A DNA stretch of 56,390 bases, filler included, from Catajapyx aquilonaris (lineage: Eukaryota): NCBI GenBank assembly GCA_000934665.2. It is 2 parts of 2 records of this genome, joined end to end, with 100 filler letters (N's around TTAATTAATTAA, not from the genome) between each part and the next. Parts side by side here need not be neighbours in the genome. Positions count along the whole stretch, not along the records: positions 27,367 to 56,390 come from KZ539282.1; 1 more part is not named here. One strand, given 5' to 3'. Below, one piece after another: positions 35,220 through 40,421 of the stretch; the stretch's first letter is position 1, and every line of letters starts with the position of its first letter. The notes under the pieces are model-generated. The model had not been told where the DNA came from and did not search any database. It was given only the letters and a program-made list of their open reading frames with translations. The translations under genes and the position numbers were made by a program.

Positions 35220-36464
35220 ATGAGCAGCATGATGGACGCAGTTCACGTGCTCTTGCTACTGGCGTTTTCGCACCTAGCTGTTGCTCAAATAGGTTACCAT
35301 TATTGTTCAGTAGATTTATCACACTGATGATTGACTCGCTGTTTTTTTTTAGAAGGAGGAGAGTGCACCACGAGCCACCCAGTGGAAGGTCAGGAATGTG
35401 TCAGCATTAAGTTGCCCTGGAAGAAGACACCGGTGTACTTATGCACAGGTCAGTTACAACCATTTAGGTCACTGATTGTTGAATTTTTCAGCCATCTTTA
35501 CTTAAATCATGCGCTAATTCCAACTTTTCCCAACCACAAATATTGTGTTGAATTTAATGAGGCACCTCTAGCGATATTAATAAATACAGTATTAATTTAA
35601 AACAGTTACTATACAGTACTATTTGAGCACAGTCTGTATATAAGAGACACTGTCTTGTCTTACTGCAGACATTTTTGCGAACTATGTCTGTGCTGCTTAA
35701 TTTTTTAAAAAAAATTTCAGAGAAAACCTTCCCGATAAGGTCTTGCAGTATTCCAGAGGGCCAGCGCTTCTGCTGGACACCTCCAAGTAGTAGCTATTTG
35801 TCCGTCAACGCCTCCTGGATGTGTTGCCCTCAGATTTCGGAAACAGGTGTGCTCTTATGCATTAATCACATTTTGCAATCGACCTAACCCTCATTACTTG
35901 ACCGATTGATACCCGCCTGTTAGACCGATGTGCGGAAGTGCAGTGCCCCGCCGCACCATTTAACAGGACATGCAAAGAGATCAATCACCCTGGGAGCTGC
36001 TGCCCTACTTACTACTGCGGATCTGGAGGTACGTACGATGTACGCCTATAAAGCCTACAATGTTGGGGAATCAATTGTCATTTTTTGTGGGGGCGTAGAT
36101 GACTGGAGGTCATGCCAGAAGAACCTGACCTGCCCTGCCAAGCCGACTGAGAAGAGGTGTAGAAGCTTTTATGATCAGCATGACTGCTGCCCCAAGCATC
36201 AATGCCCAGGGTCATCAGGTAAAAAGAGGAATGACCTTAGTCGGATCTTTTGTTCATGGTGACCTTTGTTATGCAGAATCCAAGGATGGTAGATGTCCTC
36301 GAGGGGCTTGGGCACCTGCGACTATTGAGGGGACGAATCCGAACGGAAGTAAAACATTCCACACTTGCGTTGGTGACCATACTTGCCCTGAAGATCAAAA
36401 ATGCTGCCAGAAGCATCCCAATAGTGTGGGATACTGTGTCGAGCCCACTCCAGGAGAAGAATAA
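35220..36464 (+). CDS. Secreted Cys-rich protein B (~235 aa), paralogue of A, C-terminal 6-Cys WAP-like domain
   Basis: Six exons: 35220-35292, 35353-35448, 35721-35846, 35924-36028, 36099-36218, 36277-36464. All introns phase 1; 708 nt open. TATA-like tatttataa at ~35176, signal MMDAVHVLLLLAFSHLAVAQ (start may be 35229), AATAAA at 36533. Confidence 0.88.
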
Positions 36465-37097
36465 TAGATAAGATAAACGGTCTTTTTCATGTTGCGCTTT
36501 TTCAGCTGCAAAGTCGCGTTTGTCATTTCAGAAATAAAAGATATGAAAAATTTATTTAGGTTCCTTGTATCAATTATTGTTAATTATCCGGCCTTTCATT
36601 TGGACGACTTAATTATGCTGAATTAATTAGATTTGTTTAACATTTACGATAGGCCAACGACATCAATAATTTATTTTTGGGGTAAAACTAGCCATTTCGT
36701 GCGGAAAAAATATCCAAAATTAACGCCAGAGTAAATCAAAGCGAACTCCGTGCGTAATCTAATCTGCCAGGATCCAAAAGCAAAAGCTGCAATCGATCAC
36801 ACCTGATCAAAAATAACCACTCTGCACCTGCACAAAAAAATAAATAATTCAATTTCAAACAAATGACGCGATAGGCATACGCTCAAAAAAATATTTTTCC
36901 CTCCCTCCTATTCGCGTGCATCTCCCCACACAAACATCAAAAGTAATACCATCCTGATCTTCCCCGATTAAAAATAACCCCTACCGGCACGAATCCTGAC
37001 CATTGTCACGAACGGTGACGTGGTCCGGAGTTTCCCCCATACCGACTGAAAACCTTGGTTCAAATAATATCAGTCGATCTGGAAAGCATGGAGGAGA

Positions 37098-38593
37098 ATG
37101 GACACCTCGACAGATGTGTGCGTCATTCTTATTTGCATCGTTGCTTGTATCTTCTCTTACGCTTTGTCATGTGAGTACACTCACGTCAATGTTAGTGGCA
37201 ATGTCCTCGCTCTCTGCTTACATATTCCTTATAACTTCAGTTGAATCAATTTGCACGACATCAGAACCCATTCCGAACCAGATTTGCATCTCGGTCAGGA
37301 TTCCGATCAAAGGAAAGTCGAACATACCAAGGGAACATCACATATGCGTGGGAACTGGTTGAGTATGATGGCATAGGAAGGGTGACTCGGCGGTTATGTG
37401 CTTAGTAATTAACCTTTTACTCCGCTCGGCAGATGAGATTGACTACGTGGACAAGAGCAGGTGTCCTCCTGGGCTTGCCGATGATGAAAAGAGGCTTTAC
37501 TGTCAGCCAGCTTCCGAACACAGTTTTGTGCTACAAGCGCCCTGGTTGTGCTGCCCTCTGGTTTCAGAACCAAGTGGGTGCCTTTTTCATGGGAAATGTT
37601 TCTAGGGGGCGTCACATGCATGAGAAGCTGGTGACCCATTTCAGACTCCTGAAGACATATTGTGTACTGTACAGTACATACACAGCAGTAGCCAGAAATC
37701 GCACCAGGATCCTATGATACAGTATAATGGGAGCTATAAACGTTGCTATTAATTGCAATTATTATGAAAACCTTTTTTTTTGGTTTCGGTTGAAGATGAT
37801 GATGGATAAATTGACTACCAGAATTAATTCAGTCAATTCATTTCAGTTTGTTTTCAAAAATTCTACGAAATTATTTACTATTTGAAATTGCTTTTGCTTA
37901 CATTTTAGATGGGGTGATGTCAGATATTTCTGGTCACATAATGAGTGAGAACCGGCTTTAATTTTCAGATAGGTGCAAGGATGTGACATGCGAACGCTAT
38001 CCATTTAACAGATCATGTAAGGCGCTCCGAGAGAAGGGCGCCTGTTGCAGCTTCTTTTACTGTGGTCGGTTGGAAGGTACTGAAATATGACACAAAACTA
38101 CTGAACATGTCCACACATAATTCCATTGTTGCTCCTAGACGAAGCCGAGTTTCATTCTGGATGCCCAAATATCCAATGTGATGAACCTAAAGAGAAATCT
38201 ACATGTCGCCGATTTATGGATCCGCACGATTGCTGTCCCAAATACGACTGTGGTCAACATAACGATAGCTCGTGTCCGACATTGCTCTTAGGTACAACCT
38301 GGGAGTATACATTGAAATGGGGCTTGATGGAAAGTTCTGCGCTCAATTCGGACCAACTAAAGGAGGAAAGAGAAAACCTGCGACTACGTGCGGTTTCATC
38401 AGATGGAGAGGAAAAGAGGTACCTGTCCGAAATTCGCATGTGTGTTGGTGACCACACATGCCCTAGGAAACAACAGTGCTGCCCTGGGTCCATTCAGAAA
38501 GGTCTGCAGAATTTTCTCCCAGCTCACGACTACTCCACCTATGGATTCTGTGTCCCCAACGAATACGTAGCTAAAAATAAATTAATATTCTAG
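37098..38593 (+). CDS. Secreted Cys-rich protein C (297 aa), paralogue with long-loop 6-Cys WAP-like domain
   Basis: Five exons: 37098-37170, 37241-37357, 37433-37573, 37969-38076, 38139-38593; 894 nt open. Signal MDTSTDVCVILICIVACIFSYALS. Shares APWLCC, NRSC, DPHDCCP and CVGDHTCP motifs with its paralogues. Confidence 0.87.
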
Positions 38594-38852
38594 CTAATAA
38601 TGGTCATTATTTTTCCTAAACGGATGGTACAAGAGGAAAAACAGGAAGGACGACCTTGACTCACATGTTGCACCACTTTTTCCCACTGTTGCACTGTCTA
38701 CACTTTTATTTTAAAATCCCGGAAAGAGTGAGACCAGTCACGCATTCTTTTGGCCTCTAAAAACTCTGATCGCGTGCACAGAATGACAGGGACTCATTTT
38801 ACAATGTGACCTTACCGCCTTCCAGTTCTTCCTCACATGTGCCACAGTTCGA

Positions 38853-40421
38853 ATGGGCTCCTACTGCACATTTTTCTTACTTCTTGCAATCTTTCCTTAC
38901 GTCATCGCTGACTGTAAGTACAGAATTCCCTGTCATTACGACTTGTAAAAAATGAGTCATATTGTTGCAGTTCAACCTTTGTGCTCTCACAACGAAAGTG
39001 TAAGCAATCAAACATGCTTTTCAATTACAATACCAAAAAGGGGAGGCTCGAGCCAAACACATCATTTTTGCCTTCCAAAAGGTACGTATGTCTAGGAATA
39101 CCCAGATTACATGCATGCATTAATATTATTTATTGCCAGACGCCTTAGATGTACGGCCAACAACATATTGTCGTGATACGAGCTGTACTGAGGCCCATCC
39201 CAGCGACTTTGTCTTTAAGGCGCCTTGGCTGTGCTGTGATGAACTGTCTCAACCTAGTAAGATGAATGTATTTGCTTTGCTAATTAGAAAATCATAACCC
39301 TAATTGCTTCAGATCCGTGTCGTAAAATCAAATGCCCACTGCCACCAAGCAATCGGAAGTGTGAAACATACTATGAAGAAAGCCAATGCTGCCCTTCTTA
39401 CTACTGTGGGAAAGAAAGGTTAGACTGTGAATACTTTTCATCCTTTAATCCGATTTAAAAAATTTAAAAGGCAAGATGCATACTGATGATATTTTTTGAT
39501 GACTTGTGTTTAGCCCAGTATATGGGTAACTAGGCTCTTGAAGCCAAATGACACCTCTGTACAAAGTGTTTCTATATGGTCCACATGAGTTCATCTAATA
39601 TACGTTTGTTTGCCAGAATCTTTATTGAACACCATGAAGAATAACCTAGGAGAAGAAGCTGTAGCAACTTTTTTTTTGAACCGTTCGCAGAATTCAAGAC
39701 CATCAAAATTACTGCACAACCGTAAAATGTCCAAGACGCAAAGTGCCAAAGACATGCATCGAATTTCATGACCCTTACGACTGTTGTTCTCAGATAGACT
39801 GCACAAGTGAGTAAAATAGTAGGCTAATAAAAAATAATCATCATAGTTTATTCCACCAATTAGTGGGGCTTTTGCAGTATACATAACACTTGACATGTGC
39901 ATGAATATAGGACAGCATAGTTACAATATTATATCGACAAAAGTTAACTTTTTTACAGGCAAAAAATAATTTCCTTTCCTTTCCTTGCATCATAATGTAC
40001 TGATATGCCCAATACCCTTCATGCAGATGTGGAAAAGAAGAGCAAATGTCCTTTTCTGCACGTGGACCTGGCCATTTATCGACCAAAACTGGTAGATGCT
40101 GATGCAGAAAAGCTGTCGTGGGACAGGCGCAACTGGCACTTTGAAAGGCAAAGGCAACTTTTGTTCGTGTGGGACGAAAAGAGCCAGTCATATAGCGAGA
40201 TGACTGAGGTCAGGAGATGTGTGGGTGACCACACATGTCCCAACCAAGAAACGTGCTGTCCTGCCAGTGGATCTCTGGATGGACGTCCCTTTTCTCCATA
40301 TCCTAAGGCTTTTTTGGGCTTCTGTGTACCCATATTGGATCCAGAGGCTCAAGTGATCAAAGTCGTCGTGGCTCCTCCCAAGGGCGAGAAAGACCAAACC
40401 CAATACCAAACCTCACCTTAG
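38853..40421 (+). CDS. Secreted Cys-rich protein D (301 aa), paralogue with long-loop 6-Cys WAP-like domain
   Basis: Six exons: 38853-38913, 38971-39081, 39140-39256, 39313-39418, 39691-39806, 40027-40421; 906 nt open. Signal MGSYCTFFLLLAIFPYVIA; motifs APWLCC, DPYDCC, CVGDHTCP. Confidence 0.85.

What the first reader, a model, noticed from the sequence alone, without database searches (positions are those of the whole stretch)
36277..40421. WAP domains that lost exactly one disulfide pair (C2-C7), with both freed loops expanding together
Seen: the terminal domain in A-D has 6 Cys (CP...C-x2-D-x-TCP-x4-CC...G[YF]C), while neighbouring gene E has the full 8. The missing residues are C2 and C7. 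The C1-C3 loop is 13 (A), 23 (B), 55 (C) and 56 (D) aa; the C6-C8 loop is 9, 9, 22 and 21 aa. Established: WAP connectivity is 1-6, 2-7, 3-5, 4-8, and the elafin/SLPI protease-binding loop lies around C2. Inference: losing this staple turned the inhibitory loop into a variable display or bait region, or an inserted subdomain, so the locus captures a graded evolutionary series.
Basis: partly seen in the sequence, partly recalled or inferred. Interest (0 to 1): 0.75.

Follow-up and report, generated by a model that had tools for sequence, protein, structure and literature searches.

The report
Six-cysteine WAP family with long loops
Four neighbouring arthropod genes encode secreted proteins whose small WAP domain lacks the disulfide that braces the usual protease-blocking loop; that loss is already known from whipworms, but this family, shared with springtails, often carries very long loops in its place and probably binds or builds rather than inhibits.

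Summary
Observation confirmed: the last domain of genes A-D is a WAP lacking C2 and C7, with loops of 13/23/55/56 and 9/9/22/21 aa; neighbour E has two 8-Cys WAPs. The long loops are very probably exonic: intron-free contigs of homologues keep loops of 50-123 aa, and the candidate introns score like cryptic sites. A-D belong to a family (signal peptide, two Cys modules, two 6-Cys modules, 6-Cys WAP) of at least 11 genes here, with homologues in three springtail genera; 26 of 26 measured homologous proteins have both loops long. The 'graded series' is not supported: A's loop is of ordinary WAP length, C and D are one sister pair, no ladder is recovered, the direction is unresolved, and the two loops do not scale together. 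Six-Cys WAPs are published for Trichuris and Trichinella and also occur in a tardigrade and a barnacle, with short loops, so losing C2-C7 permits but does not cause expansion. I did not find the long-loop family described. Best reading: a non-inhibitory binding or matrix scaffold; untested. The scan had not noted this family before.

The parts
33039..33998 (-). Gene A, 217 aa, 5 exons (33944-33998, 33780-33878, 33470-33697, 33278-33391, 33039-33196): signal-peptide-like N-terminus, modules M1 and M2, two 6-Cys modules, 6-Cys WAP with loops 13/9; 24 mature Cys
   Evidence: Pfam WAP 32.6 bits
35229..36464 (+). Gene B, 232 aa, 6 exons (35229-35292, 35353-35448, 35721-35846, 35924-36028, 36099-36218, 36277-36464); 25 mature Cys
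36277..36464 (+). B terminal exon: 6-Cys WAP, loops 23/9 (C1 at 36294, C3 at 36366, C8 at 36435)
   Evidence: codon positions counted from the sequence
37098..38593 (+). Gene C, 297 aa, 5 exons (37098-37170, 37241-37357, 37433-37573, 37969-38076, 38139-38593); the last exon holds the second 6-Cys module and the WAP without the intron that A, B, D and springtail-type genes have there (inferred intron loss); 25 mature Cys
38276..38440 (+). C loop 1 (C1-C3), 55 aa, GC 0.47; holds the GT-AG candidates 38292-38402 and 38292-38408
38483..38548 (+). C loop 2 (C6-C8), 22 aa; no in-frame GT-AG of 45 nt or more
38853..40421 (+). Gene D, 301 aa, 6 exons (38853-38913, 38971-39081, 39140-39256, 39313-39418, 39691-39806, 40027-40421); 25 mature Cys
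40050..40217 (+). D loop 1 (C1-C3), 56 aa, GC 0.50
40260..40322 (+). D loop 2 (C6-C8), 21 aa
43191..43693 (-). Gene E, 123 aa, 3 exons: signal-peptide-like N-terminus plus two canonical 8-Cys WAP domains (double-WAP, type IV crustin-like layout). Its first core is the 8-Cys core most like the six-Cys family in the loci examined

Best explanation
A-D are members of a family of secreted, disulfide-rich, multi-module arthropod proteins: signal peptide, two family-specific Cys modules (M1, M2), two 6-Cys modules, and a C-terminal WAP core held by three disulfides (1-6, 3-5, 4-8). The C2-C7 pair was lost before this organism's genes and the springtail genes diverged. SHOWN: gene structures, Cys pattern, family membership, conserved intron positions, long loops in intron-free homologous contigs, rapid loop divergence. 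INFERRED: without C2 and its staple the domain is no longer a canonical elafin-type serine-protease inhibitor. The core acts as a small scaffold from which two neighbouring loops project (neighbours because C2 and C7 join them in normal WAPs). The loops are conserved at their bases, free in the middle and largely without fixed structure, and serve binding, adhesion or spacing in an extracellular matrix or secretion. The odd number of mature cysteines (25) probably gives a disulfide-linked dimer or a link to another protein. Loop length has grown and shrunk by lineage, not along one ladder.
For: Eleven genes at five contigs share the architecture and the six-Cys core. Homologues in Orchesella, Folsomia and Allacma have the same layout (tblastn against the window), and one genomic homologue has introns at the same places (L085). 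Three contigs of 1057-1352 nt hold whole 320-364 aa frames with loop 1 of 50, 53 and 123 aa (L082-L084). The interiors of the C and D loops are no more alike than shuffles (p 0.50) although their ends and lengths agree (global p 0.012). Many homologous loops are Met/Gly/Pro/Ser-rich, and 22 of 26 carry an N-glycosylation sequon (22 of 28 long loops against 10.1 expected; rows are related). AlphaFold gives pLDDT about 80 on the module and WAP core and 46-66 on loop 1. Mature Cys = 25 in B, C, D and 10 of 10 full-length homologues; A and the C1588 gene lack the first Cys and have even counts. The protease contact region lies around C2 with a Met (PMC9680087, passages).
Against: No functional, expression or localisation data for any member. 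No RNA evidence for these genes themselves. The fold searches did not return a WAP structure, and the PDB sequence search gave nawaprin and elafin only at E 0.6-2, so the three-disulfide core rests on sequence homology. C and D loops carry no N-glycosylation sequon and are not low-complexity, unlike the springtail loops, and their near-equal lengths (55/56, 22/21) suggest more constraint than a free spacer. Cys parity is irregular in the C395, C2553 and C206 paralogues.
Confidence: 0.5

Rival explanations
1. Bait or processing loop: loop 1 is cut by a protease or proprotein convertase, which opens or activates the protein while the disulfides hold the two chains together.
For: Dibasic sites in 16 of 28 long loops against 9.8 expected from shuffles, C and D included. 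The unrelated six-Cys WAP at C2289 has an R-x-K-R site in its 62-aa loop. One Allacma loop has a strict furin site.
Against: Strict furin sites in 1 of 28 (0.7 expected) and R-x-x-R in 2 of 28 (5.1 expected). Rows are related, so the dibasic excess is weak. No trapping mechanism or thioester is evident. Nine paralogues have short loops.
Confidence: 0.15
2. Loops 1 and 2 pack together into a folded inserted subdomain that replaces the lost disulfide.
For: Long loop 1 always comes with long loop 2 in C, D and 26 of 26 homologous proteins. Loop bases are conserved across springtail genera. C and D keep near-equal lengths.
Against: No interior similarity between C and D. Models disagree: helices for C, strands for D (single sequence, pLDDT 42). 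Loop 1 spans 47-126 aa with low-complexity middles. Fold searches gave Z at most 3.6.
Confidence: 0.15
3. Antimicrobial or membrane-active crustin-like effectors, in which the changed C2 region acts on microbes, as proposed for antimicrobial WAPs and for the pore-forming six-Cys whipworm proteins.
For: C-terminal WAP after Cys-rich modules resembles crustin layout; antimicrobial WAPs replace the contact region (PMC9680087); Tt52 and Tt95 are described as forming pores in bilayers (PMC6130879); local gene expansion.
Against: The WAP exons are mostly acidic or neutral (pI 4.1-7.1 in 10 of 11). A review passage reports a crustin with an incomplete WAP as inactive. The upstream modules are not crustin Cys-rich regions.
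Confidence: 0.12
4. One reading: progressive lengthening A to B to C/D within this locus after loss of the staple.
For: The numbers rise in gene order. A clade of A-D is not rejected (p-AU 0.44), nor B+C+D (0.20). Outgroup-type WAPs have short loops, so lengthening happened at some point.
Against: The free tree has no such ladder. A lies inside the ordinary range. C and D are one event. All measured homologous proteins outside this genome are long-looped, so A and B may be shortened.
Confidence: 0.12
5. The long loops of C and D are partly introns, and the real proteins have shorter loops (or C is spliced at 38253-38402 and lacks C1).
For: In-frame GT-AG pairs exist in both. 38253 is near the ancestral intron position. 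No RNA was available.
Against: Candidates score 6.6-7.1 (38253-38402: 2.4), below 16 of 20 true introns and matched by 7 of 16 windows of intron-free contigs; GC 0.47-0.51 against 0.365 for introns (1 of 20 reaches 0.47). An open 50-codon frame with Cys-Pro at the expected place occurs in 0.06% of background windows. C and D candidates are at different places. Homologous intron-free contigs keep long loops.
Confidence: 0.06

Closest known systems
Six-cysteine WAP (SLPI-like) proteins of Trichuris and Trichinella (Foth et al. 2014, PMC5012510; Tm-WAP, Tt52, Tt95 in Briggs et al. 2018, PMC6130879)
   Same: WAP domains with exactly six cysteines in secreted proteins, function of the change unknown. 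The T. muris protein P0038 lacks the same C2 and C7.
   Different: They are tandem WAP repeats with short loops (13-15 and 7 aa). Here there is one terminal WAP after four unrelated Cys modules, often with loops of 47-126 and 21-47 aa. The paper calls six cysteines an apparently novel trichocephalid adaptation; the pattern also occurs here, in a tardigrade and in a barnacle.
Canonical WAP/four-disulfide-core inhibitors (elafin, SLPI, waprins; Pfam PF00095)
   Same: C1-Pro, C3-x2-D-x2-C4, C5C6 and C8 with the usual spacing of the core.
   Different: No C2, no C7, no Cys-anchored contact loop; three disulfides at most; loops up to eight times longer.
Crustins (types I-VII; PMC9680087, PMC7401287)
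   Same: Secreted pancrustacean proteins with Cys-rich parts before a C-terminal WAP. Gene E has the double-WAP (type IV) layout.
   Different: Crustins are defined by an eight-Cys WAP and are smaller and mostly cationic; the four upstream modules match no Pfam family.
Unnamed springtail 'WAP domain-containing proteins' (ODM88267.1, Ocin01_03237, LOC110849214, CAG7819666.1)
   Same: Whole architecture, six-Cys WAP, 25 mature Cys, intron positions: the same family.
   Different: Database annotations only. Their loops are almost all long and often low-complexity, whereas this genome has 9 short-loop and 2 long-loop genes.

Membership tests
WAP domain (PF00095) | Profile match above the curated cut-off | tested here: met
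   A 32.6 and B 27.3 bits over 20.8; C 17.2 and D 17.4 under it because the loops split the match; 6 of 8 homologues of the family pass
WAP four-disulfide core (canonical) | Eight conserved cysteines | tested here: not met
   Six in A-D, C2 and C7 absent; E meets it
WAP four-disulfide core (canonical) | WAP three-dimensional fold | tested here: inconclusive
   Core modelled at pLDDT about 80 but no WAP entry listed by Foldseek or VIA-align; the core is small and split by loops
WAP four-disulfide core (canonical) | Disulfide connectivity 1-6, 3-5, 4-8 | not testable with these tools
   The model's coordinates are not returned; connectivity is recalled from elafin
Elafin/SLPI-type inhibitors | Contact loop around C2, usually with Met at the scissile bond | tested here: not met
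   No C2 in 37 of 37 family domains measured; feature as given in PMC9680087
Elafin/SLPI-type inhibitors | Measured protease inhibition | not testable with these tools
   Needs an assay
Crustins | Eight-Cys WAP at the C-terminus | tested here: not met
   Six Cys; definition in the abstract of PMC9680087
Six-Cys WAP of trichocephalid type | Six cysteines, C2 and C7 missing | tested here: met
   Same pattern in P0038 and in A-D
Six-Cys WAP of trichocephalid type | Tandem WAP repeats with short loops; common descent of the loss | tested here: not met
   Single terminal WAP and other modules here; common descent of the loss was not tested by a tree
Springtail SP-M1-M2-module-module-WAP6 family | Shared module order, Cys pattern and intron positions | tested here: met
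   module profile match 96.7%
VWC C-terminal half (upstream 6-Cys modules) | Profile or fold match to VWC | tested here: inconclusive
   No Pfam hit, no PDB sequence hit, Foldseek lists the CCN3 vWC domain only at E 5.0

The most novel reading that the evidence does not exclude
An ancient, undescribed arthropod family has turned the WAP inhibitor core into a loop-display scaffold: with C2-C7 gone, two adjacent loops of up to about 125 and 47 residues form a rapidly diversifying binding surface on a disulfide-linked dimer, used for recognition (microbes, mates or matrix partners). The same C2-C7 loss has recurred across nematodes, tardigrades, barnacles and hexapods as a general switch from inhibitor to binder.
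Probability: 0.2. Interest if true: 0.7.

Novelty: new variant of a known kind. Interest (0 to 1): 0.45.

Why it matters
What the six-Cys change does to a WAP domain was left open in the whipworm genome paper. This locus makes it testable in a harmless setting: an 8-Cys neighbour (E) with an almost identical core sits beside short-loop (A, B) and long-loop (C, D) six-Cys versions, and a homologue exists in the laboratory springtail Folsomia candida. It also shows that the six-Cys form is not peculiar to trichocephalid nematodes, and that a WAP core tolerates inserts of more than 100 residues. Without any functional data the importance stays moderate: fast-evolving secreted Cys-rich families are common in this genome.

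Tried and rejected
RNA: no RNA holder listed for 35200-40450; no evidence either way, and no reads could be laid. Homologue search with A's exon 3 alone found nothing. ESM Atlas gave no usable hit for P0031 or for the N-terminal part of P0049. The single-sequence model of D was poor (pLDDT 42) and was not searched. Fold searches with the C model listed no WAP: Foldseek had no match at E 0.001, the wide search was filled by the low-confidence helices (Z at most 3.6), and the second look matched residues 97-140 to Draxin at Z 2.5. The module profile had no PDB sequence hit. An alternative frame at 38361-38570 reads like a WAP start but is out of frame with the core, and the in-frame residues before C3 match D, so it was rejected as chance. 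SVWC identity for M1-M2 was considered from recalled spacing and dropped (no Pfam hit). IFT20 fused to the Allacma model P0072 has no match in the window; I take it for a gene-model fusion. Further own-genome searches found no new members. Pfam on 87 of 104 other long frames in the window gave only a C2H2 zinc finger over its cut-off. Literature: searches for six-cysteine WAP with crustin, missing cysteine, Collembola, springtail WAP and four accession numbers listed no description of this family; most subscription journals are not held, and the supplements of PMC5012510 (Supplementary Fig. 5, which shows the lost cysteines) were not read. A search for elafin disulfide mutants gave nothing usable. 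Earlier-finding look-ups by place, sequence and words found no match to this family.
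Full report
1. Observation. The window comes from a 285.6-Mb eukaryote assembly with short introns (G000, contig C2914). Five genes are concerned: A (minus, 33039-33998), B (35229-36464), C (37098-38593), D (38853-40421) and E (minus, 43191-43693). All five models are open, with 20 of 20 GT-AG introns, 19 in phase 1. The terminal domains of A-D align with E's two domains at six cysteines and lack the second and seventh. Pfam WAP is passed by A, B and both E domains; C and D fall just under the cut-off because only the C3-C6 core matches. 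The signal peptides were judged by eye (hydrophobic first exon); no predictor was run.

2. Are the long loops coding? No RNA run was listed, so the evidence is indirect. In-frame GT-AG pairs exist in C and D. Against a matrix built from the 20 local introns they score 6.6-7.1, below 16 of the 20 true introns in leave-one-out and equalled by 7 of 16 windows from intron-free homologous contigs. Their GC is 0.47-0.51; introns average 0.365 and 1 of 20 reaches 0.47; exons average 0.479. C lacks the intron between the last module and the WAP that A, B, D and the genomic homologue L085 have. A 150-nt intron at 38253-38402 would remove C1, but it scores 2.4, and an open 50-codon frame with Cys-Pro at the expected place arises in 0.06% of 90,476 background windows; intron loss is the simpler reading. 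Most telling, three contigs of 1057-1352 nt carry whole 320-364 aa homologues without introns and with loop 1 of 50, 53 and 123 aa (L082-L084); I infer that they are spliced transcripts.

3. The family. The genome has 82 WAP matches. Of 71 WAP-like rows in the loci fetched, 15 lack both C2 and C7 by my pattern: 11 family members, one pacifastin-WAP domain, one unrelated protein at C2289 and two doubtful rows. The 11 lie on C2914 (A-D), C395 (four), C2553, C1588 and C206 and share the order signal peptide, M1, M2, two 6-Cys modules, six-Cys WAP. The C2553 and C206 domains have a seventh Cys two residues after the CC pair, not at the usual C7 spacing. A profile of the 11 domains gave 40 hits among 1.84 billion proteins; follow-up searches gave 8 and 23 hits. 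Named members come from Orchesella cincta, O. dallaii, Folsomia candida and Allacma fusca. I measured the 26 homologous proteins that hold both C1 and C8 (7 named springtail proteins, 19 unnamed; fragments without C1 or without the WAP were left out): loop 1 is 47-126 aa, loop 2 is 23-47 aa, none with a Cys. One further locus, L088, has a loop 1 of 28 aa (counted). A 63-position profile favours short-loop forms, so their scarcity outside this genome is not an obvious search bias. No insect or crustacean member of the family was returned, which is weak evidence of absence.

4. Six-Cys WAPs elsewhere. The same search returned six-Cys domains without C2 and C7 in Trichuris muris (P0038), the tardigrade Paramacrobiotus (P0003) and the barnacle Amphibalanus (P0004, alternating with 8-Cys domains); their loops are 10-15 and 7-10 aa. 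Foth et al. 2014 (PMC5012510, passages read) report that nearly all WAP domains of Trichuris and Trichinella have exactly six cysteines, call this an apparently novel trichocephalid adaptation and say its effect is unknown. Briggs et al. 2018 (PMC6130879, passages) describe Tm-WAP repeats with six cysteines and cite pore formation by Tt52 and Tt95. So the cysteine loss is known, and it does not by itself lengthen loops. That it permits lengthening is suggested by a second, unrelated case in this genome: a Gly/Tyr/Asn-rich protein at C2289 with a six-Cys WAP, loop 1 of 62 aa and loop 2 of 7 aa, while 47 eight-Cys domains here stay within 11-22 aa.

5. A graded series? In a tree of 25 proteins with both loops removed (11 from this genome, 14 homologues), C and D are sisters (100/99), the 14 homologues form a clade (99/99), the C395 and C2553 genes form a clade (100/99), and the base is unresolved; D and the C206 gene have long branches. 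Long against short needs two changes on the free tree. A single clade of all long-loop proteins is not rejected (p-AU 0.36), nor are B+C+D (0.20) or A-D (0.44). The direction is therefore open, and A and B may be shortened forms. The two loops are both long in C, D and the homologues, but they do not scale together: rho 0.42 (p 0.20) over the 11 genes, -0.08 over the 9 short ones, -0.70 over the 26 related homologues; C1588 has 18/19.

6. What the loops are. The C and D loops agree at their ends and in length (global p 0.012 for both loops), but the interior of loop 1 is no better than shuffled (p 0.50); against the 26 homologous loops, 3 of 52 comparisons reach p under 0.05, about what chance gives. 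Springtail loops keep a conserved start after C1 and a conserved loop-2 frame around middles rich in Met, Gly, Pro, Ser or His. N-glycosylation sequons occur in 22 of 28 long loops (10.1 expected), none in C or D; dibasic sites in 16 of 28 (9.8 expected); strict furin sites in 1 of 28 (0.7 expected). AlphaFold on C's last exon with 36 sequences gives pLDDT 78-83 on the module, about 80 on the WAP core and 46-66 on loop 1, drawn as helices; D alone gives low-confidence strands. The fold searches are inconclusive. A folded insert is neither shown nor excluded.

7. Mechanism. The protease contact region of elafin-type WAPs lies around C2 and usually has a Met (PMC9680087, passages); the 2-7 connectivity is recalled. 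With C2 absent from 37 of 37 family domains, canonical inhibition is unlikely (inference). The simplest reading is a secreted scaffold whose three-disulfide core presents two adjacent, variable, poorly ordered loops for binding or spacing. B, C, D and 10 of 10 full-length homologues have 25 mature cysteines; A and the C1588 gene lack the first one and have even counts, which points to that residue as a free thiol for dimers or attachment (inference). Rivals are a cleaved bait loop, a folded insert, an antimicrobial role and partial introns, as scored above.

8. Origin hint. Scored against a matrix of the 26 homologous cores, E's first domain ranks third of 64-70 cores examined (22.8; next 8-Cys core 16.6), among the six-Cys members. 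The neighbour may thus descend from the same 8-Cys domain that gave the six-Cys family. This rests on 10 variable positions and is only a lead.

9. Novelty. Six-Cys WAP: already known. The multi-module family with loops of up to about 125 residues: present in databases as unnamed 'WAP domain-containing proteins', not found described in five searches of the held library (listings only). PMC3060125 lists a Folsomia 'whey acidic protein' transcript responsive to cadmium and phenanthrene (one table row); whether it belongs to this family is unknown. PMC7401287 and PMC8660643 were read as passages. Interest 0.45.

Noticed in passing
L036:4215-4584 (G000:C2289): Unrelated Gly/Tyr/Asn-rich protein with a six-Cys WAP whose C1-C3 loop is 62 aa and holds an R-x-K-R site, while the C6-C8 loop is 7 aa: a second, apparently independent long-loop case.
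   Followed up: partly
window 43407-43565 (-): The core of E's first 8-Cys WAP is closer to the six-Cys family core than any other 8-Cys core examined.
   Followed up: partly
L045:1594-1778 (C2553) and L049:1114-1295 (C206): Seven-Cys versions: no C2, but an extra Cys two residues after the CC pair.
   Followed up: no
L070-L081 (G000:C1987): Long arrays of the same 6-Cys module, mostly one per exon, in giant proteins; also at C2003, C1161 and C3547.
   Followed up: no
L010, L020, L033, L034, L037, L039: Clusters of genes with a pacifastin-like module before a WAP; some WAPs lack C7 and carry an extra Cys after C4.
   Followed up: no
window 45283-45792 (+): Open frame with about 12 Pro-Glu-Pro-Ala repeats followed by Asp-Pro-Asn-Ala repeats; probably an exon of a secreted or surface protein.
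   Followed up: no
window 29498-29806 (-): C2H2 zinc-finger exon.
   Followed up: no
L086, L087: Homologues with extremely Met-rich loops.
   Followed up: no
window 27267-27366: Scaffold gap; the window before it lies off contig C2914.
   Followed up: no
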